IMG/VR virus record: IMGVR_UViG_2526164597_000016
Length of the DNA: 34,328 nt
Origin: a virus
Lineage: Duplodnaviria; Heunggongvirae; Uroviricota; Caudoviricetes
Direction: 5' to 3' (one strand)
The translations under genes were made by a program, and so were the position numbers. Shown piece after piece: positions 1,345-28,364 of the stretch (position 1 is its first letter; each line of letters opens with the position of its first letter). Below the pieces are notes generated by a model. The model worked only from the letters and a program-made list of their open reading frames with translations. It searched no databases and was not told the DNA's origin.

Positions 1345-1496
1345 TTGACAGTAACCTATTGGTGACTTATATTCCCGTCAAAAGGTTGTGTATTGGTGAC
1401 CTTTTGAGTGTGTTAGCCAGTCCCTAGAAAGGACAGGGGCGACCTAGAAGGGACTGGATCTAATAAGGGTAACACGAAAGCAAAAAGGGCTAATCA
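1345..1496. promoter_or_regulatory. Lysis/lysogeny switch region with candidate early promoter Pe and operator repeats
   Basis: TTGACA 1345-1350, 17-bp spacer, TATATT 1368-1373 reading rightward toward cox; direct repeat TATTGGTGAC at 1358-1367 and 1391-1400; inverted repeat CAGTCCCT 1418-1425 / AGGGACTG 1449-1456 with nested direct CCTAGAA at 1422-1428 and 1443-1449. Confidence 0.55.
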
Positions 1497-3253: not shown

Positions 3254-3525
3254 GTATTCGTATTGAAATTGGCGAACGTTATGTCGTTACCAGTGACAGC
3301 TTTCAGTTTATTCTCCACGAGAAAAAGAGAGCGGAAAGCGGTAAAAACGCCGGTCAGGAATGGCTGTCGGTGGTTGGTTATTACCCGAAATTAAGCCAGC
3401 TCGTTTCCGGCCTGATGCATCACGATATTCTGACCGGAAGCGCAAAGTCTTTTGCTGATTTAAACGCGCAGGTTGAGCAACTCAGCAAGCGTTGTTCAGA
3501 GGCTTTTGGCTCATATGGCCGTTAA
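3250..3525 (+). CDS. Early hypothetical protein (P2 orf83 position)
   Basis: 91-aa ORF; ATGA overlap with the previous gene. Confidence 0.5.
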   Translation: MSIRIEIGERYVVTSDSFQFILHEKKRAESGKNAGQEWLSVVGYYPKLSQLVSGLMHHDILTGSAKSFADLNAQVEQLSKRCSEAFGSYGR

Positions 3526-5785
3526 AGCCTCCGGGCGTTTTGTCCCTCCGTCAGCATTTGCCGCAGGCACCGGTAAGACGACCGGTGCTTATGCATGGAA
3601 CGCGCCACGCGAGGCCGTCGGGCGCGAAAGACCCCTTACACGTGACGAGATGCGTCAGGTGCAAGGTGTTTTATCCACGATTAACCGCCTGCCTTACTTT
3701 TTGCGCTCGCTGTTTACTTCACGCTATGACTACATCCGGCGCAATAAAAGCCCGGTGCACGGGTTTTATTTCCTCACATCCACTTTTCAGCGTCGTTTAT
3801 GGCCGCGCATTGAGCGTGTGAATCAGCGCCATGAAATGAACACCGACACGTCGTTGCTGTTTCTGGCAGAGCGTGACCACTATGCGCGCCTGCCGGGAAT
3901 GAATGACAAGGAGCTGAAAAAGTTTGCCGCCCGTATCTCATCGCAGCTTTTCATGATGTATGAGGAACTCAGCGATGCCTGGGTGGATGCGCATGGCGAA
4001 AAAGAATCACTGTTTACGGATGAGGCTCAGGCTCACCTGTATGGTCATGTTGCTGGCGCTGCACGAGCTTTCAATATTTCCCCTCTCTACTGGAAAAAAT
4101 ACCGTAAAGGACAGATGACCACGAGGCAGGCATATTCTGCCATTGCCCGTCTGTTTAACGATGAGTGGTGGACTCATCAGCTTAAAGGCCAGCGTATGCG
4201 CTGGCATGAAGCGTTACTGATAGCTGTCGGGGAGGTCAATAAAGACCGTTCTCCTTATGCCAGTAAACACGCCATTCGTGATGTGCGTGCGCGCCGCCAG
4301 GCAAATCTGGAATTTCTTAAATCGTGTGATCTCGAAAACAGGGAAACCGGCGAGCGCATCGACCTTATCAGTAAGGTGATGGGCAGTATTTCTAATCCTG
4401 AAATTCGCCGGATGGAGCTGATGAACACCATTGCTGGTATTGAGCGTTACGCCGCAGCAGAGGGTGATGTGGGGATGTTTATCACGCTCACCGCGCCGTC
4501 AAAGTATCACCCGACACGTCAGGTTGGAAAAGGCGAAAGTAAAACCGTCCAGCTAAATCACGGCTGGAACGATGAGGCATTTAATCCAAAGGATGCGCAG
4601 CGTTATCTCTGCCGCATCTGGAGCCTGATGCGCACGGCATTCAAGGATAATGATTTACAGGTCTACGGTTTGCGTGTCGTCGAGCCACACCACGACGGAA
4701 CGCCGCACTGGCATATGATGCTTTTTTGTAATCCACGCCAGCGTAACCAGATTATCGAAATCATGCGTCGCTATGCGCTCAAAGAGGATGGTGACGAAAG
4801 AGGAGCCGCGCGAAACCGTTTTCAGGCAAAGCACCTTAACCGGGGCGGTGCTGCGGGATATATCGCGAAATACATTTCAAAAAACATCGACGGCTATGCA
4901 CTGGATGGTCAGCTCGATAACGATACCGGCAGGCCGCTGAAAGACACTGCCGCGGCTGTTACCGCATGGGCGTCAACGTGGCGCATTCCGCAATTTAAAA
5001 CGGTTGGCCTGCCGACAATGGGGGCTTACCGTGAACTACGCAAATTGCCTCGCGGCGTCAGCATTGCTGATGAGTTTGACGAACGCGTCGAGGCTGCACG
5101 CGCTGCCGCAGACAGTGGCGATTTTGCGCTGTATATCAGCGCGCAGGGTGGGGCAAATGTCCCGCGCGATTGTCAGACTGTCAGGGTCGCCCGTAGCCCG
5201 TCGGATGACGTTAACGAGTACGAGGAAGAGGTCGAGAGAGTGGTCGGCATTTACGCGCCGCATCTCGGCGCGCGTCATATTCATATCACCAGAACGACGG
5301 ACTGGCGCATTGTGCCGAAAGTTCCGGTCGTTCAGCCTTTGACTTTAAAAAGCGGCATCGCCGCGCCTCGGAGTCCTGTCAATAACTGTGGAAAACTCAC
5401 CGGTGGTGATACTTCGTTACCGGCTCCCACACCTTCTGAGCACGCCGCAGCAGTGCTTAATCTGGTTGATGACGGTGTTATCGAATGGAGTGACCCGGAG
5501 GTCGTGAGGGCGCTCAGAGGTGCATTAAAACACGGTCGGAGAACGCCAAGTCGTCAGCAAAGAAACGGAAGCCCGTTAAAACCACATGAAATTGCACCAT
5601 CGGCCAGACTGACCCGGTCGGAAAGAATGCAAATTACCCGTATCCGCGTTGACCTTGCTCAGAACGGTATCAGGCCGCAGCGATGGGAGCTTGAGGCGCT
5701 GGCGCGTGGCGCGACCGTAAATTATGATGGGAAAACGTTTTCATATCCGATTTCTGATGGTTGGGCGGGATTTGAAACAAACTAA
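3515..5785 (+). CDS. A: Rolling-circle replication initiator / endonuclease (P2 gpA-like); start taken at ATG 3515 (the ORF opens at TTG 3473)
   Basis: About 756 aa; N-terminus MAVKASGRFVPPSAFAAGTGK recognised as P2 gpA-like; position after B and the small ORFs. Confidence 0.85.
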   Translation: MAVKASGRFVPPSAFAAGTGKTTGAYAWNAPREAVGRERPLTRDEMRQVQGVLSTINRLPYFLRSLFTSRYDYIRRNKSPVHGFYFLTSTFQRRLWPRIERVNQRHEMNTDTSLLFLAERDHYARLPGMNDKELKKFAARISSQLFMMYEELSDAWVDAHGEKESLFTDEAQAHLYGHVAGAARAFNISPLYWKKYRKGQMTTRQAYSAIARLFNDEWWTHQLKGQRMRWHEALLIAVGEVNKDRSPYASKHAIRDVRARRQANLEFLKSCDLENRETGERIDLISKVMGSISNPEIRRMELMNTIAGIERYAAAEGDVGMFITLTAPSKYHPTRQVGKGESKTVQLNHGWNDEAFNPKDAQRYLCRIWSLMRTAFKDNDLQVYGLRVVEPHHDGTPHWHMMLFCNPRQRNQIIEIMRRYALKEDGDERGAARNRFQAKHLNRGGAAGYIAKYISKNIDGYALDGQLDNDTGRPLKDTAAAVTAWASTWRIPQFKTVGLPTMGAYRELRKLPRGVSIADEFDERVEAARAAADSGDFALYISAQGGANVPRDCQTVRVARSPSDDVNEYEEEVERVVGIYAPHLGARHIHITRTTDWRIVPKVPVVQPLTLKSGIAAPRSPVNNCGKLTGGDTSLPAPTPSEHAAAVLNLVDDGVIEWSDPEVVRALRGALKHGRRTPSRQQRNGSPLKPHEIAPSARLTRSERMQITRIRVDLAQNGIRPQRWELEALARGATVNYDGKTFSYPISDGWAGFETN

Positions 5786-5896
5786 CAATAATGATTGACA
5801 TGCTTGATTTTGTATTCACAAATCAAGCATCAAGTAAACATCGATGATGAGAAAGAACAATGCTACAATCCCCACAGCATTAGAAGGAGGTTTATC
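5786..5896 (+). promoter_or_regulatory. Promoter/operator region of the methyltransferase gene
   Basis: Perfect inverted repeat TGCTTGATTT 5801-5810 / AAATCAAGCA 5820-5829 (9-bp spacer) next to TTGACA 5795-5800; extended -10-like TGcTACAAT at 5861-5869; AGGAGG 5885-5890 six nt before the TTG start. Confidence 0.5.
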
Positions 5897-6946
5897 TTGA
5901 TTAAGGTTGTTGATTTATTCTGTGGCGCGGGTGGCTTGACTCACGGTCTTCAGAAGTCGGGGCTTAATGTAGTTGCAGGTTATGATATAGATGCAGCCTG
6001 TCGATTTGCCTATGAGACAAATAATAAATCACTCTTTGTCCAGAAAAGTGTTACAGACATTGAGGACGGCGAATTAGTTAAATATTTCGAAGGAGCGAAG
6101 GTTCGAGTTTTGGCTGGTTGTGCCCCATGCCAACCTTTTTCAAGCTATACCAATAGTGCTAAATTAGGGGTAGTACGTTCAAAAGATAAAAGATGGTCTT
6201 TGCTTTATAGCTTTGCTAAGCAAATTAAATTTGCAAAGCCAGATATTATTACAATGGAAAACGTTCCCCGAGTGGTGAATCATAAGGTTTTTAAGGACTT
6301 CATTAAGTCTCTTAAAAATGATGGCTATTTTGTTTGGTATGGGGTGGTGTTTTGTCCAGACTATGGAATGGCACAAAGTCGTTCAAGATTAGTGTTATTG
6401 GCATCAAAATATGGAGAAATAGAAATAATTCCACCAACTCATGAGAAGAATGATTATAAAACGGTGCGAGATATAATCGGTAATCTTCCTGAAATTAGTG
6501 CCGGTGCTGTTCACGCTGGAGATAAACTACATCGCTCTGCATCATTATCTGATATTAATATAAAAAGAATAATGGCATCAAAACCTGGTGGAACATGGCG
6601 TGATTGGCCAGAAGAGCTAAGAGCAAAATGTCATACAAAAGAAAGTGGTTCTACATATACTGCTGTATATGGGAGAATGTGTTGGGATAAACTTGGACCG
6701 ACAATTACAACTCAATGTATTGGATATGGGAATGGACGCTTTGGGCACCCTGTCCAAAATAGAGCATTAAGTTTAAGAGAGGCTGCGCTATTACAGTCAT
6801 TCCCAGAAAAGTATGAGTTTTGGCCTGATGATGTAAAAATTGAAATGAGAACAGTTGCGCGTTTAATAGGTAATGCTGTTCCTGTTAGGCTTGGTGAGGT
6901 CGTAGGTGAAACTATTTTAAAACATTTGTCAGAAATGAATATTTAA
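5897..6946 (+). CDS. DNA (cytosine-5)-methyltransferase (Dcm-like), probable TTG start
   Basis: Motif I DLFCGAGG, motif IV PCQPFS (catalytic Cys), motif VI ENV, motif VIII QSRSR, motif X GNAV; the ORF-track N-terminal extension from 5795 translates the promoter/palindrome and is probably not coding. Confidence 0.85.
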   Translation: MIKVVDLFCGAGGLTHGLQKSGLNVVAGYDIDAACRFAYETNNKSLFVQKSVTDIEDGELVKYFEGAKVRVLAGCAPCQPFSSYTNSAKLGVVRSKDKRWSLLYSFAKQIKFAKPDIITMENVPRVVNHKVFKDFIKSLKNDGYFVWYGVVFCPDYGMAQSRSRLVLLASKYGEIEIIPPTHEKNDYKTVRDIIGNLPEISAGAVHAGDKLHRSASLSDINIKRIMASKPGGTWRDWPEELRAKCHTKESGSTYTAVYGRMCWDKLGPTITTQCIGYGNGRFGHPVQNRALSLREAALLQSFPEKYEFWPDDVKIEMRTVARLIGNAVPVRLGEVVGETILKHLSEMNI

Positions 6947-6958
6947 AACTTATGTCAT

Positions 6959-6980
6959 CCCCCTGTCAAAAAACAGGGGG
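6959..6980. terminator. Hairpin between convergent genes, probable bidirectional terminator
   Basis: CCCCCTG (6959-6965), loop TCAAAAAA, CAGGGGG (6974-6980), lying between the methyltransferase stop (6946) and the ATPase stop (6987). Confidence 0.5.
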
Positions 6981-6986
6981 GTATAA

Positions 6987-8945
6987 TTAGATTCCCTCAA
7001 CTATTTTCATAATTCTAGCTGCATCATTCTTTTTGTCTTGATATTCAGCATAGGCTTGTTTTGATTGCACGATTAGGTCATTATATGTCAATATTTTTCC
7101 ATTGATAGAAAGTAATTGCATATTTATAAAGTGTTGGTTCTCTTGTAAATATCCAGAGCCAACCAGGAATATTACTTCTATATGCGGTATATTTCCACCT
7201 GGGCAATTTTTAGGGTTATTGGAGAACCATTGTGTCGTTGCCTGTACATATTTATTACCTTGTGCGACTAGGTTCATTATATCTGGGTGCACTTTAGGTC
7301 GTTTCATCTCAATAATTACATGCTTGCCAGAAACGGTTTTGAAAGCGATATCAATACGAGCACCGCTAGCAGCATCAGGGTTTATCTGTTTTAGTTCCTT
7401 GGTCAATGTTTGCTCCATAACAGATGTGCCTGTGACTCTTTCCCATGAAGGATCCAATAACCATAAATGATCATATAAATACATTTGTACAGCTCTTTCA
7501 AGCTGATTTTCATCAGTTATTTTTTGGAATTTTTCAATTACTTTAAGGCGTTGCGAAGTAATTTCATAAAACATGCTTGCTTCAATGTCATTGACAGATG
7601 CAAATACATCTTTAAAATTTTCTGATTGAAGGTTGCTTATTTTATCTAATGCATCAAGGTTGTCTTGAATTCTAAGTCTTTCAAAGGCTAATACCGTATT
7701 TTTTAATACGGTTTTTCTTGCTGCTTTTTGTTCTTCCTCATTACCAGAAAAACGGAATGTGTTTACTCGTCCAATTAACTTTTCGGCACTTTCTCTCTCA
7801 TGTTTTTTGAGAGAATTCAGCCATTCACTTACTATTGGAGTATTGCTTTTAACTTCATTTACTCCTTTTTCGCGTCTCCATTTATCCCAATCTTTATCGA
7901 TTAGTTGTAGCGTTCTTTCCAGAAAACCTTTAAGTACAGGGTATCTTGGATCATTCTGTTGTAGTTTTTGACGAGAAGATGTTGCCATATCAGGCTTTTC
8001 GTTATCATCTAGAAAATCGGCGACTATTTCACCGACCAGATAATTGGTGAATACTTTAGCACTTCCAAATTCTAATAATATGTCCTCCTCAAAAACACGT
8101 CCGTGAGAGATTACAGTAATGCTGTTGTTAGATATTTCAGGGTCTTTCTTTAACTGTGATGGCTTAACTACACTGCCAATGTACCCACTAACTTTTACAT
8201 CTTTTCCTTCAAAGGTAATAGTATTTGGTAATATGTTTTTTTGTGTGATGTTTGTGCAGGATTTTATCCTTTCAGGGTCGGATTCGCCAAATTCCCAAAT
8301 GAACTCGAGATCTGAAAGGAAATCTCTATCTGCCGGTGTAATATCGGTCCCATTAATTTTAACTGTAAAGTTATGGTTGGGGCCAATAATGCTAAATCGA
8401 CGAGCTATTCGCTTTCTGAGGTAAGTTTGAGTCCTATCAATGGCTTTTTTTAGTTCAAATAATTTAATTGTAGTGCCGTAAGCAAGATTTTCGGGTATTT
8501 CAAGGGAGTCAGCAATATAGTTTTTTGATTCTTTGATACTTTGCTGTAAATCTTTGACATCTACCTCAAAGGCCTGAGGCTGTTCCCCCTTTTTGTACGA
8601 ATAAACTTGGATTTTATTGGCAAGTGAAAACATGGCAAGCTTACCAATACCTTTTCTGCCCATAACTTGACGTTTTAGATGATCGCTTTTGGCTCTTCCA
8701 TGTTCCCTGCGAGCATAACCGACTTTTAGGAACTTATTAATAATGTCATCTTTAGACATGCCATGACCATCATCTTTAATGATGACCTCTCCTTTCTCAA
8801 CATCAAGTGTAATTTCTACATTTTGAGCATCTGCATCCCATGCATTTGATATAATCTCAGTTAGTACCGCGGGAGTATTGGAATAGAGACTCATCCCTAG
8901 GTGATTTAGCACATTCAAATCAATTTTAATTTCGAAATCTGACAT
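6987..8945 (-). CDS. GHKL (Bergerat-fold, MORC/MutL-like) ATPase with C-terminal PD-(D/E)xK-like nuclease motif; candidate defence or restriction effector
   Basis: N-terminal ATPase motifs EIISNAWDA (N box), DDGHGM (G1), GRKGIGKLA (G2); C-terminal RIDIAF ... HVIIEMKRP fits a D ... E-x-K nuclease signature; AAGGA precedes the ATG; gene is AT-rich by inspection. Confidence 0.7.
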   Translation of the reverse strand: MSDFEIKIDLNVLNHLGMSLYSNTPAVLTEIISNAWDADAQNVEITLDVEKGEVIIKDDGHGMSKDDIINKFLKVGYARREHGRAKSDHLKRQVMGRKGIGKLAMFSLANKIQVYSYKKGEQPQAFEVDVKDLQQSIKESKNYIADSLEIPENLAYGTTIKLFELKKAIDRTQTYLRKRIARRFSIIGPNHNFTVKINGTDITPADRDFLSDLEFIWEFGESDPERIKSCTNITQKNILPNTITFEGKDVKVSGYIGSVVKPSQLKKDPEISNNSITVISHGRVFEEDILLEFGSAKVFTNYLVGEIVADFLDDNEKPDMATSSRQKLQQNDPRYPVLKGFLERTLQLIDKDWDKWRREKGVNEVKSNTPIVSEWLNSLKKHERESAEKLIGRVNTFRFSGNEEEQKAARKTVLKNTVLAFERLRIQDNLDALDKISNLQSENFKDVFASVNDIEASMFYEITSQRLKVIEKFQKITDENQLERAVQMYLYDHLWLLDPSWERVTGTSVMEQTLTKELKQINPDAASGARIDIAFKTVSGKHVIIEMKRPKVHPDIMNLVAQGNKYVQATTQWFSNNPKNCPGGNIPHIEVIFLVGSGYLQENQHFINMQLLSINGKILTYNDLIVQSKQAYAEYQDKKNDAARIMKIVEGI

Positions 8946-9130
8946 ATAGTCGTTCCTTGCTGAGAGTTCATTTTAGTTTCATGCAATCAATAGGTTAGGC
9001 TGAAGATAAAACCTTAAGATAACCAAAGCAAGTGTTCATTAGCGGCTTTGTTTCATGACATGATGTGTGTCGCTTTTTGCATGAAACTGCATTTGTTTCT
9101 TATATCTGCTCTTTTTACATACTGCTAGTG

Positions 9131-9152
9131 TTGACATGGCTTTGACATGGCT
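9131..9152. repeat. Perfect tandem 11-bp direct repeat TTGACATGGCT x2 just upstream of cos
   Basis: Read directly: 9131-9141 and 9142-9152 are identical. Confidence 0.8.
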
Positions 9153-9188
9153 GTGCAACCGCATTAAAACCGCCCCATGAAGCGGGCG

Positions 9189-9207
9189 GGCGAGGCGGGG
9201 AAAGCAC
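9189..9207. other. cos: cos site: 19-nt cohesive-end sequence GGCGAGGCGGGGAAAGCAC
   Basis: Exact match to the P2 cohesive-end 19-mer as I recall it, located just beyond the end of the portal gene as in P2. Confidence 0.7.
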
Positions 9208-9376: not shown

Positions 9377-10411
9377 TCAACCGTTGTCAGTGTCCAGTGA
9401 GTAGTTTTTAAAGCGGATGACCTCCTGACCGAGCCAGCCGTTTATTTCCCGAATTCTGTCCTGTAACGGGATAAGCTCATTGCGGACAAAGACCTTTGCC
9501 ACTTTCTCAATATCTCCCAGTGACCCGACGTTCTCCGGCTTGCCGCCCATCAACTGAAAGGGGATACGGTGCGCGTCCAGCAGGTCAGCGGCGCTGGCTT
9601 TTTTGATATTAAAAAAATCGTCCTTCGTTGCCACTTCACTGAGCGGGATAATTTTAATGCCGTCGGCTTTCCCCTGTGGGGCATAGAGAAACAGATTTTT
9701 AAAGTTATTGCGGCCTTTCGACTTCACCATGTTTTCGCGAAGCATTTCGATATCGTTGCGGTCCTGCACGGCATCGGTGACGTACATGATGTATCCGGCA
9801 TGTGCGCCGTTTTCGTAATACTTGCGGCGGAACAGCGTGGCCGACTCATTCAGCCAGGCAGAGTTAAGGGCGCTGAGATATTCCGGCAGGCCGTACAGCT
9901 CCTGATTAATATCCGGCTCCAGCAGGTGAAACACGGAGCCGGGCGCGAAGGCTGTCGGCTCGTTGAAGGACGGCACCCACCAGTAAACATCCTCCTCCAC
10001 GCCACGGCGGGTATATTTTGCCGGTGAGGTTTCCAGTCTGATGACCTTACCGGTGGTGCTGTAACGCTTTTCCAGAAACGCATTACCGAACACCAGAAAA
10101 TCCAGCACAAAGCGGCTGAAATCCTGCTGGGAAAGCCACGGATGCGGGATAAATGTCGAGGCCAGAATATTGCGTTTGACGTAAATCGGCGAGCTGTGAT
10201 GCACGGCAGCACGCAGGCTTTTCGCCAGACCGGTAAAGCTGACCGGCGGCTCATACCATCTGCCGTTACTGATGCACTCGACGTAATCCAGAATGTCACG
10301 GCGGTCGAGTACCGGCACCGGCTCACCAAAGGTGAATGCCTCCATTTTCGGGGCGCTGGCGGTGATTGTTTTTGCCGCAGGTCGCGGTGTTTTCCCTTTT
10401 TTCTTACTCAT
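9377..10411 (-). CDS. Q: Portal protein (P2 gpQ)
   Basis: 344 aa, same length as P2 gpQ; start overlaps the P stop (ATGA); adjacent to cos. Confidence 0.9.
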   Translation of the reverse strand: MSKKKGKTPRPAAKTITASAPKMEAFTFGEPVPVLDRRDILDYVECISNGRWYEPPVSFTGLAKSLRAAVHHSSPIYVKRNILASTFIPHPWLSQQDFSRFVLDFLVFGNAFLEKRYSTTGKVIRLETSPAKYTRRGVEEDVYWWVPSFNEPTAFAPGSVFHLLEPDINQELYGLPEYLSALNSAWLNESATLFRRKYYENGAHAGYIMYVTDAVQDRNDIEMLRENMVKSKGRNNFKNLFLYAPQGKADGIKIIPLSEVATKDDFFNIKKASAADLLDAHRIPFQLMGGKPENVGSLGDIEKVAKVFVRNELIPLQDRIREINGWLGQEVIRFKNYSLDTDNG

Positions 10412-17682: not shown

Positions 17683-18112
17683 TGCCGTCACGGTGCTGAA
17701 AACCAGTCCCGAGATGCTGCGGATATTCGTGGATAACGGGAGTATTGCCTCCACACTGGCGACGTCGCTGTCATTCGAAAAGCGTTACACGCTCAACGTG
17801 ATTGTGACCGACTTTACCGGTGATTTTGACCTGCTCATCGTGCCGGTGCTGGCGTGGCTGCGGGAAAATCAGCCAGACATCATGACCACCGACGCAGGCC
17901 AGAAAAAGGGCTTCACGTTTTATGCAGACATCAACAATGACAGCAGCTTTGATATCAGCATCAGTCTGATGCTGACCGAGCGCACGCTGGTCAGTGAGGT
18001 GGACGGCGCACTGCATGTGAAGAATATCCCGGAACCTCCGCCGCCGGAGCCGGTCACCCGCCCGGTGGAGCTTTATATCAATGGTGAACTGGTGAGCAAG
18101 TGGGATGAATGA
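17645..18112 (+). CDS. R: Tail completion protein R (P2 gpR)
   Basis: 155 aa, same as P2 gpR. Confidence 0.8.
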   Translation: MLKPDSLRRALTDAVTVLKTSPEMLRIFVDNGSIASTLATSLSFEKRYTLNVIVTDFTGDFDLLIVPVLAWLRENQPDIMTTDAGQKKGFTFYADINNDSSFDISISLMLTERTLVSEVDGALHVKNIPEPPPPEPVTRPVELYINGELVSKWDE

Positions 18113-18557: not shown

Positions 18558-18587
18558 TTTTATCCAGACAGAGGCTGATGCGCAATT

Positions 18588-18622
18588 AAACATTGAGCGG
18601 CCATGCTGGTCGCTCAATGTTT
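18588..18622. terminator. Perfect 12-bp stem hairpin between S and the reverse-strand cargo gene; possible bidirectional terminator
   Basis: AAACATTGAGCG 18588-18599, 11-nt loop, CGCTCAATGTTT 18611-18622; there is no clean U-tract on either side. Confidence 0.4.
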
Positions 18623-18628
18623 AGAGGT

Positions 18629-28308: not shown

Positions 28309-28364
28309 TTTTCATCCGGTCAGCCTGGCTGACCGGTTAACCCCGATTCAGAAGTGAGAAAACC

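What the first reader, a model, noticed from the sequence alone, without database searches (positions are those of the whole stretch)
5795..5899. Methyltransferase gene has a TTG start behind a strong SD and a perfect 10-bp palindrome in its promoter
The longest ORF begins at ATG 5795, but that extension translates straight through a perfect inverted repeat (TGCTTGATTT N9 AAATCAAGCA, 5801-5829) and an extended -10-like TGcTACAAT (5861-5869). AGGAGG (5885-5890) sits six nt before an in-frame TTG (5897) that immediately precedes motif I (DLFCGAGG). The palindrome is a candidate operator, for example autoregulation by the methyltransferase or control by a regulator encoded elsewhere, as seen in controlled restriction-modification systems. 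A TTG start would also set a low translation rate.
Basis: seen in the sequence. Interest (0 to 1): 0.5.

Follow-up and report, generated by a model that had tools for sequence, protein, structure and literature searches.

The report
Methylase start and promoter; private palindrome
The DNA methylase gene of a restriction-modification cassette carried by a P2-like prophage does start at a conserved TTG behind a strong ribosome-binding site and a conserved promoter, as databases already annotate, but the neat palindrome upstream occurs only in this one lineage and shows no sign of being a shared control site.

Summary
The window is a P2-like prophage, about 99.9% identical to Escherichia phage PhiR44_1. 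In the known gpA-to-cos/gpQ cargo hotspot it carries an HgiDII/BbrUII-family Type II restriction-modification pair.

- **Start codon:** The TTG at 5897 with AGGAGG six nt upstream is correct. It is already the RefSeq and GenBank start. It is TTG in 13 of 14 related lineages (64-100% protein identity) and GTG in the other. In five lineages no other start is possible.
- **Promoter:** The extended -10 (TGCTACAAT) is real and conserved. A conserved TCGATG sits 17 nt upstream of its TACAAT hexamer.
5795 is TTG, not ATG. No in-frame ATG or GTG lies upstream.
- **Palindrome:** It is real. The arms are 11 nt and perfect (5800-5830), with p about 0.001 locally. It lies upstream of the conserved promoter block, centred near -61.
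- **Palindrome distribution:** It is found only in 99-100% identical copies and is absent from all 13 other lineages.
- **No operator context:** There is no significant second copy. The cassette has no regulator gene, and the methylase has no N-terminal DNA-binding domain.

The operator reading is therefore unsupported, though not excluded. The palindrome is more likely a lineage-specific junction product, perhaps a hairpin on early-operon read-through. Low interest.

The parts
3473..5785 (+). Replication gene gpA. It is the last gene of the P2-type early operon and the left border of the cargo hotspot.
   Evidence: Pfam Phage_GPA, 413 bits. Homology to other P2-like phages ends at about 5772-5777.
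5800..5830 (.). Perfect inverted repeat ATGCTTGATTT-N9-AAATCAAGCAT. It is specific to this lineage and lies at the backbone/cargo junction, centred about 61 nt upstream of the predicted transcription start.
   Evidence: p about 0.001 locally. Absent in 13 other lineages. An exact-pattern scan of viral contigs found it only in contigs with a 99-100% identical methylase. The left arm is shared with phage pro147, which has different cargo.
5839..5846 (+). Conserved CATCGATG. The hexamer TCGATG (5841-5846) sits 17 nt upstream of TACAAT, in the -35 position.
   Evidence: TCGATG in 12 of 14 lineages and TCGAAG in 2, with the spacer sequence free to vary.
5861..5869 (+). Extended -10 promoter element TGCTACAAT. 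The predicted transcription start is near 5874-5876.
   Evidence: TGNTACAAT is invariant in 14 lineages, 26-30 nt before the start codon. The transcription start is inferred, not mapped.
5885..5890 (+). Shine-Dalgarno AGGAGG, six nt before the start codon.
   Evidence: A GGAGG-type SD is conserved in the enterobacterial lineages.
5897..6946 (+). m5C DNA methyltransferase gene (349 aa) with a TTG start.
   Evidence: Pfam PF00145, 189.6 bits, starting at residue 2 of the short form. Annotated start in RefSeq and GenBank. TTG in 13 of 14 lineages.
6959..6980 (.). GC-rich hairpin CCCCCTGT-N6-ACAGGGGG between the convergent M and R genes. It is a putative shared terminator.
   Evidence: Read. The function is inferred, and there is no clear T run on either strand.
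6987..8945 (-). Restriction gene (652 aa): a GHKL/paraMORC3-type ATPase fused to a nuclease, of the BbrUII/HgiDII family.
   Evidence: NCBIfam NF050001, 751 bits against a cut-off of 550. Pfam HATPase_c_3. PADLOC REase_II. PhiR44_1 annotation 'ParaMORC3'.
9003..9031 (-). Candidate promoter of the restriction gene: TTGCTT-N17-TATCTT.
   Evidence: TTG(A/C)(T/A)T-N17-TATCTT is conserved at the same place in L014, L015, L016, L023 and L024. Inferred, not mapped.
9189..9207 (+). GGCGAGGCGGGGAAAGCAC, which matches the 19-nt P2 cohesive end as I recall it. It marks the right border of the cargo region.
   Evidence: Exact match located. Its identity as cos rests on my knowledge of P2. The hotspot is described as cos-adjacent in PMC9122126.

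Best explanation
**What the region is.** It is the 5' control region of the m5C methyltransferase gene of an HgiDII/BbrUII-family Type II restriction-modification cassette. The cassette rides in the gpA-to-cos/gpQ cargo hotspot of a P2-like prophage.

**How the gene is expressed.**
- The methylase is translated from TTG 5897, six nt after AGGAGG.
- It is transcribed from its own sigma-70 promoter: TCGATG (5841-5846), then N14, then TGC-TACAAT (5861-5869).
- This gives a leader of about 21-23 nt. The layout travels with the gene.
- There is no controller protein. In the E. coli-type cassettes the restriction gene is convergent, with its own promoter.
- Inferred: the strong SD with a weak TTG start sets a fixed, moderate methylase level. 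During lytic growth the gene can also be read through from the early operon.

**What the palindrome is.**
- The 11-bp palindrome (5800-5830) lies outside this conserved unit, at the junction between phage backbone and cargo.
- Its left arm belongs to a short post-gpA segment also found in phage pro147, which carries different cargo. A homologous segment is seen in the L014/L023 relatives.
- Its right arm sits in an 18-nt block that has been replaced relative to those relatives.
- It is most likely a lineage-specific product of an inverted, templated copy of the left flank (template switch or recombination).
- If it acts at all, it more probably acts as a hairpin on read-through RNA at the 3' end of the gpA transcript than as an operator.
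For: Shown by tool results:
- **Identity of the element:** 99.9% identity to PhiR44_1, with 'Dcm protein' and 'ParaMORC3' annotated. R matches NF050001 at 751 bits. M matches PF00145 from residue 2 of the short form.
- **Start codon:** the RefSeq start is at 5897. 13 of 14 lineages have TTG at the homologous codon. Five have an in-frame stop and no alternative start upstream.
- **Distant relatives:** relatives at 37-56% identity use ATG and lack this promoter.
- **Promoter:** TCGATG-N14-TGN-TACAAT sits 26-30 nt before the start in all 14 lineages, including a V. cholerae island where M and R are co-directional.
- **Palindrome is private:** it is absent from the other lineages. Every other copy of the region found is identical to the window.
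- **Right arm is derived:** the 18 nt between TTGATTTT and TCAAGTAAAC match L023 at 2 of 18 positions while both flanks align.
- **Left arm is shared:** it is present after gpA in pro147. There is no hairpin after gpA in P2, Wphi, P22H4 or YpM_115.
- **Phage repressor sites differ:** the immunity region carries direct repeats of TATTGGTGAC, unrelated to the palindrome.

Inferred rather than shown: the transcription start, the effect of TTG on translation rate, and the template-switch origin.
Against: - A perfect 11-bp palindrome is unlikely by chance (p about 0.001). It is invariant in all 30 E. coli genomes that carry the cassette. Those copies are so alike that this says little, but it does not exclude selection.
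- One other lineage (L015) has a different perfect 16-bp palindrome at nearly the same distance from the -10: 47.5 nt against 49 nt. This could hint at a position-specific role.
- The hairpin has only 3 G-C pairs in 11 and no U tract, so it is a poor intrinsic terminator.
- No transcript or protein data were available.
Confidence: 0.7

Rival explanations
1. The palindrome is an operator. A dimeric regulator encoded elsewhere in the phage or host binds the two 11-bp half-sites centred near -61 and activates or represses the methylase promoter.
For: - The symmetry is perfect and statistically unusual.
- The position resembles a class I activator site.
- L015 carries an unrelated perfect palindrome at almost the same distance from the -10.
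- A 3-mismatch copy lies at 8900-8924, inside the first codons of the restriction gene.
Against: - It is absent from 13 other lineages that keep the promoter.
- The 8900-8924 match is at chance level: about 0.16 such matches are expected per shuffled window. It also lies in a conserved coding sequence.
- Half-sites are not enriched in the window.
- The cassette has no regulator gene.
- The phage immunity operators are unrelated direct repeats.
- The methylase has no N-terminal DNA-binding extension.
Confidence: 0.12
2. The palindrome works at the RNA level. It forms a stem-loop at the 3' end of the early (gpA) transcript. That stem-loop stabilises the transcript or partly blocks read-through into the methylase gene, insulating the cargo from the early operon.
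For: - It begins 15 nt after the gpA stop and lies upstream of the methylase promoter, so it is present only in read-through RNA.
- The predicted stem is 11 bp, at -14.3 kcal/mol in context.
Against: - There is no U tract, only 3 G-C pairs, and the RNA z-score is only -1.7.
- Other P2-like phages have no hairpin after gpA.
- It is not conserved in relatives.
Confidence: 0.2
3. The regulatory site of this promoter is the conserved CATCGATG at the -35 position, not the upstream palindrome. It could, for example, be a near-cognate site that shares the TCGA core with GTCGAC and is bound or modified by the system's own proteins.
For: - TCGATG is kept in 12 of 14 lineages (TCGAAG in the other two), although three of its six positions do not match the -35 consensus.
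- The neighbouring spacer has diverged to near-random between the window and L039.
- It is an 8-bp palindrome, the size of a restriction-type site.
Against: - It can be explained as a -35 hexamer held at a set strength.
- L025 and L026 have TCGAAG, which breaks the symmetry.
- The specificity of this enzyme pair is unknown. GTCGAC is only the specificity reported for HgiDII (PMC5867850).
Confidence: 0.1

Closest known systems
HgiDII / BbrUII family Type II restriction-modification systems (M.HgiDII methylates GTCGAC; the R enzyme is a GHKL/paraMORC3 ATPase-nuclease)
   Same: - R matches the NCBIfam equivalog NF050001 above its cut-off.
- It has an N-terminal GHKL domain, as described for R.HgiDII (PMC2441816) and paraMORC3 (PMC2292703).
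- The partner is an m5C methylase.
   Different: - The specificity of this pair was not determined.
- Here the pair is cargo of a P2-like prophage, with convergent genes.
- The promoter and TTG-start layout are shared only by the gammaproteobacterial clade (64% identity or more). More distant members lack it.
Controller (C) protein-regulated restriction-modification systems (such as PvuII, AhdI, Esp1396I)
   Same: A palindromic sequence upstream of a restriction-modification gene is the kind of feature that serves as a C-box operator in those systems (my knowledge of the family).
   Different: - There is no C gene in the cassette.
- There is a single palindrome rather than paired C-boxes in front of a C gene.
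- It is not conserved among relatives and has no counterpart at the R promoter.
Methyltransferase autoregulation through an N-terminal helix-turn-helix region (SsoII, Ecl18kI, EcoRII, MspI type)
   Same: It is an m5C methylase with an inverted repeat upstream of its gene.
   Different: With the TTG start, motif I begins at residue 6, so there is no N-terminal DNA-binding region.
P2-like phage cargo hotspot between gpA and cos/gpQ (tin/old region of P2)
   Same: - The location is the same, between gpA and the cos-proximal end next to gpQ (PMC9122126, PMC13586616).
- The cargo is AT-rich: 36.9% GC against 50.7% for the window.
   Different: The cargo here is a classical Type II restriction-modification pair, not old/tin or one of the newer defence systems.

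Membership tests
HgiDII/BbrUII-family Type II restriction-modification system | The restriction protein matches the family model above its curated cut-off. | tested here: met
   NF050001 restrict_BbrUII equivalog, 751.4 bits against a cut-off of 550, covering residues 4-651.
HgiDII/BbrUII-family Type II restriction-modification system | An adjacent m5C DNA methyltransferase. | tested here: met
   PF00145 at 189.6 bits and TIGR00675 at 130 bits. The genes are 40 nt apart and convergent.
HgiDII/BbrUII-family Type II restriction-modification system | Recognition and methylation of GTCGAC. | not testable with these tools
   The specificity is known for M.HgiDII (PMC5867850). It needs bisulfite or EM-seq, or cleavage assays, for this pair.
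C-protein-controlled restriction-modification system | A small helix-turn-helix controller gene within the cassette. | tested here: not met
   Between gpA and cos only M and R are annotated, plus a 41-aa ORF next to cos. Other ORFs of at least 40 aa lie inside or antisense to M and R. The small ORF was not scanned against Pfam.
C-protein-controlled restriction-modification system | An operator (C-box) conserved among related systems and placed in front of the regulated genes. | tested here: not met
   The palindrome is absent in 13 related lineages. There is no significant copy at the R promoter.
Methyltransferase autoregulation via an N-terminal HTH (SsoII type) | An N-terminal DNA-binding extension preceding motif I. 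| tested here: not met
   Motif I starts at residue 6 of the 349-aa protein. The upstream frame is closed by stops in five lineages.
Methylation-sensitive promoter control (CfrBI type) | The system's own recognition site inside the promoter. | tested here: inconclusive
   There is no GTCGAC in 5786-9170. However, the true specificity of this enzyme is unknown, and a conserved CATCGATG sits at the -35 position.
Extended -10 sigma-70 promoter | A TGn motif directly upstream of a -10 hexamer close to TATAAT, at a suitable distance from the gene. | tested here: met
   TGC-TACAAT at 5861-5869, conserved in 14 lineages at 26-30 nt from the start codon. The transcription start was not mapped.
Intrinsic (Rho-independent) terminator | A G+C-rich stem followed by a U tract. 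| tested here: not met
   There are 3 G-C pairs in 11 and no T run. The terminator scan did not report it. The RNA z-score is -1.7.

The most novel reading that the evidence does not exclude
The upstream palindrome, together with the unrelated perfect palindrome at the same distance in L015, marks a slot at about -60. Different lineages of this cassette would have acquired operators there for unlinked host or phage regulators. This would tie methylase expression to the state of the carrier phage without any controller protein in the cassette. The deeply conserved CATCGATG at the -35 position could then be a second, family-wide control site.
Probability: 0.1. Interest if true: 0.45.

Novelty: new member of a known kind. 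Interest (0 to 1): 0.15.

Why it matters
As it stands, this is mostly confirmation. The gene start is already correctly annotated, and the cassette is a known type of restriction-modification system in a known phage cargo hotspot.

Two modest points are new:
- A non-ATG start, a strong ribosome-binding site and an extended -10 promoter with an unusual conserved -35 (TCGATG) travel with this methylase across hosts from E. coli to Vibrio. This suggests a fixed, controller-free way of setting methylase level in this family.
- The eye-catching palindrome is a private feature of one lineage. It should not be annotated as an operator without experiments.

Tried and rejected
- **Looking for palindrome variants with compensatory changes.** I ran an exact-pattern scan of IMG/VR, promoter-pattern scans of IMG/VR and the metagenome collection, and BLAST of E. 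coli genomes and phages. Only identical copies turned up, so no covariation test was possible.
- **Genome-contig scan with the methylase**. It returned only distant relatives (37-56% identity). These served as an outgroup, since they have ATG starts and no shared promoter.
- **Plasmids.** No relevant match.
- **A general post-gpA hairpin in P2-like phages.** Rejected: P2, Wphi, P22H4 and YpM_115 have none.
- **Intrinsic terminator.** Rejected.
- **Known binding sites.** By eye, the palindrome does not fit the P2 late-promoter TGT-N12-ACA dyad, the CRP, IHF or LexA consensus, or a XerCD/dif-type site. This rests on my own knowledge of the consensus sequences.
- **Second promoter from the perfect TTGACA at 5795-5800.** Rejected: no usable -10 lies at 16-18 nt, and the scan reported none.
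- **A shared 'TTGA...TCAA' dyad at a fixed centre in several lineages.** Rejected as a real motif: the half-site spacing differs in every lineage and the arms are only 4-5 nt.
- **Similarity between the palindrome arm and CTTGATTT upstream of the restriction gene in relatives.** That sequence is the -35 of the R promoter.
- **WonAB**, from a paper that mentions paraMORC. It is unrelated.
- **Rfam.** No match in the window.

Full report
**1. What the window is.**
- The region around the finding is 99.9% identical to Escherichia phage PhiR44_1, a P2-like phage.
- In that record the three genes here are annotated as replication protein GpA, 'Dcm protein' and 'ParaMORC3'.
- In the window, gpA is 3473-5785 (+) (Pfam Phage_GPA).
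- The methylase ORF is 5795/5897-6946 (+). It matches PF00145 at 189.6 bits.
- A 652-aa GHKL protein is convergent at 6987-8945 (-).
- That protein matches the NCBIfam equivalog 'BbrUII/HgiDII family restriction enzyme' at 751 bits against a cut-off of 550. It also matches PADLOC Type II REase models.
- R.HgiDII is described as a GHKL-domain restriction enzyme (PMC2441816). The paraMORC3 family is described as GHKL plus S5 plus a C-terminal nuclease domain, typically linked to restriction-modification genes (PMC2292703). M.HgiDII is an m5C enzyme for GTCGAC (PMC5867850).
- The portal gene gpQ is at 9377-10411 (-).
- GGCGAGGCGGGGAAAGCAC at 9189-9207 matches the P2 cohesive end as I recall it.
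- The pair therefore sits in the gpA-to-cos/gpQ hotspot, which is known to hold variable defence cargo in P2-like phages (PMC9122126, PMC13586616).
- The cargo is 36.9% G+C against 50.7% for the window.
- 30 of 5426 complete E. coli genomes carry the region, all at 99.8% identity or more.

**2. Checking the observation.**
- The coordinates are right for the inverted repeat, the TGCTACAAT, the AGGAGG and the TTG at 5897.
- The repeat is one base longer per arm than reported: 5800-5810 and 5820-5830, perfect, with 9 nt between the arms.
- It is unlikely by chance. It appears in 0.12% of dinucleotide shuffles of the 111-nt intergenic region. The whole window has 2 such repeats against 0.13 expected.
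- One statement is wrong: the long ORF opens at TTG 5795, not ATG. The only in-frame start-type codons upstream of 5897 are three TTGs. There was never an upstream ATG competing with 5897.

**3. The start codon.**
- RefSeq annotates the 349-aa form from 5897 (WP_000598783.1), and so does GenBank PhiR44_1.
- The Pfam model aligns from residue 36 of the long ORF, which is residue 2 of the short form.
- Most homologues are 341-357 aa, and the close ones begin MIKVVDLFCGAGG.
- I collected DNA for 13 further lineages at 64-90% protein identity. They are L014, L023, L024, L015, L016, L051, L025, L026, L036, L052, L037, L038 and L039.
- The homologous codon is TTG in 12 of them and GTG in the V. cholerae one.
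- In L024, L025, L026, L036 and L037 an in-frame stop lies 3-138 nt upstream with no other start codon in between. There the TTG is the only possible start.
- Neighbouring wobble positions vary (ATT/ATA, AAG/AAA, GTT/GTG/GTA) while the TTG does not. That fits selection for a weak initiation codon. This is an inference, since expression was not measured.
- Distant relatives at 37-56% identity use ATG.

**4. The promoter.**
- Aligned on the -10, all 14 lineages share TCGATG (TCGAAG in L025 and L026), then 14 variable nt, then TGN-TACAAT. The start codon follows 26-30 nt later, and the enterobacterial lineages have a GGAGG-type SD.
- Between the window and the V. cholerae locus the spacer has diverged to near-random. 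Even so, CCATCGATG and TGCTACAAT are kept.
- In that V. cholerae locus M and R are co-directional and overlapping, next to an integrase.
- The promoter therefore belongs to the methylase gene and travels with it.
- The predicted transcription start is near 5874-5876, giving a leader of about 21-23 nt. This is inferred from promoter geometry.
- The consensus scan did not list this promoter because TCGATG matches only 3 of 6 positions of TTGACA. Extended -10 promoters tolerate a weak -35 (established knowledge).
- The fidelity of the non-consensus positions of TCGATG is noteworthy and unexplained. It forms an 8-bp palindrome, CATCGATG, in most lineages.

**5. The palindrome.**
- It lies to the left of the conserved block, spanning about -76 to -46 from the predicted start.
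- None of the 13 other lineages has it. A scored search for inverted repeats upstream of the -35 gave chance-level results everywhere except in two places:
  - the window (score 11, reached by 1 of 300 shuffles);
  - L015, which has a different perfect palindrome, TTTTATAG/CTATAAAA (reached by 12 of 300 shuffles), centred 47.5 nt from the -10 against 49 nt in the window.
- An exact-pattern scan found the palindrome only in seven IMG/VR contigs whose methylase is 99-100% identical. The promoter-pattern scans returned the same kind of copy, including four metagenome contigs identical to the window across this region.
- The left arm region (AATGATTGACATGCTTGATTTTG) follows gpA in phage pro147, which carries reverse-transcriptase cargo.
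- A homologous xTTGATTT sits at the same distance from the -10 in L014 and L023. The right arm is unique to the window.
- In the alignment, the 18 nt between TTGATTTT and TCAAGTAAAC match L023 at 2 of 18 positions, while both flanks align and the length is the same.
- The right arm is thus an exact inverted copy of the adjacent left flank, placed in a replaced block. That is the signature expected of a template-switch or similar junction event. This is an inference.
- Other P2-like phages (P2, Wphi, P22H4, YpM_115) have no hairpin after gpA.

**6. Tests of the operator idea.**
- Half-sites are not enriched in the window: 17 matches at 2 mismatches or fewer against 13.4 expected.
- The full dyad at 3 mismatches or fewer has one further match, 8900-8924, inside the first codons of the restriction gene. 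About 0.16 such matches are expected by chance, and the sequence there is fixed by a conserved peptide.
- The restriction gene has its own conserved promoter candidate, TTGCTT-N17-TATCTT at 9031-9003, with no dyad.
- The cassette has no third gene.
- The methylase has no N-terminal extension.
- There is no GTCGAC in the cargo.
- The phage immunity region carries direct repeats of TATTGGTGAC, unrelated to the palindrome.
- Nothing supports an operator, but the copies that carry the palindrome are too similar to one another to test constraint.

**7. Tests of the RNA reading.**
- The stem-loop would exist only in read-through RNA from the early operon.
- It folds at -14.3 kcal/mol in a 65-nt context (z = -1.7), has 3 G-C pairs in 11 and no U tract.
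- The terminator scan does not report it.
- A role as a 3' stabiliser or weak barrier remains possible but is not indicated.

**8. Verdict.**
- The start-codon and promoter parts of the finding are right. They are already reflected in public annotation.
- The palindrome is a real and improbable sequence feature, but it is private to one lineage. It is best explained as a junction product without a demonstrated role.
- The system is an ordinary member of a known restriction-modification family in a known phage hotspot.
- Interest is low. The most useful residue is the conserved TTG / SD / extended -10 / TCGATG architecture of this methylase clade.

Noticed in passing
window 5839-5846, and the same position in L014-L016, L023-L026, L036-L039, L051, L052: The -35 position of the methylase promoter is a conserved TCGATG, usually within CATCGATG. 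It is kept across 64-100% identity relatives while the spacer next to it diverges freely. This is more conservation than a weak -35 hexamer would seem to need.
   Followed up: partly
L015 about 815-830: The 83%-identity relative has an unrelated perfect 16-bp palindrome, TTTTATAGCTATAAAA. It is centred 47.5 nt upstream of the -10, almost the same position as the window's palindrome (49 nt).
   Followed up: partly
window 8900-8924: GGTGATTTAGCACATTCAAATCAAT is a 3-mismatch copy of the palindrome core. It lies inside codons 8-15 of the restriction gene. It is at chance level statistically and is constrained by a conserved peptide.
   Followed up: partly
window 9003-9031 (-): There is a candidate restriction-gene promoter, TTGCTT-N17-TATCTT. 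A conserved CAGCAAGGAA ribosome-binding region lies before ATG 8945. Five related loci share both.
   Followed up: partly
window 9078-9092 and about 9154-9170 (-), and related loci: ATGCA-containing repeats (ATGCAGTTTCATGCA, TTTTAATGCGGTTGCAC) lie between cos and the restriction gene. They recur in most related phages and may be packaging (cos-region) elements.
   Followed up: no
window 9131-9151 (-): There is a tandem direct repeat, GCCATGTCAA A GCCATGTCAA, just inside the cos-proximal end of the cargo region.
   Followed up: no
window 1357-1366 and 1391-1400: Direct repeats of TATTGGTGAC lie between the divergent repressor-like gene (1051-1344, -) and cox-like gene (1497-1769, +). They are probably the immunity operators. 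CTAGAA(A/G)GGAC repeats follow at about 1424-1453.
   Followed up: no
window 18587-18623; also 17955-17975 and 28316-28336: Other perfect inverted repeats in the window: one with 13-nt arms and an 11-nt loop, and two with 10-nt arms and a 1-nt loop. None was examined.
   Followed up: no
window 5872-5880 and 5917-5925: An imperfect 9-nt inverted repeat (CCACAGCAT / ATTCTGTGG) brackets the leader, the SD and the first codons of the methylase mRNA. It appears not to be conserved in L014.
   Followed up: no
L014 about 463-482 and L015 about 477-497: In the 186-like relatives the methylase follows a small gene preceded by a LexA-box-like sequence (CTGTATGTTTATACAG / CTGTATATAAATACAG). This suggests an SOS-controlled tum-type gene upstream of the same cassette.
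   Followed up: no
L039/L040 (Vibrio cholerae) 3501-6549: The same methylase promoter drives a co-directional, overlapping M-R pair. The pair lies next to an integrase and an HNH/ScoMcrA-like gene, outside any P2-like phage. The called start there is GTG, with no clear SD.
   Followed up: partly
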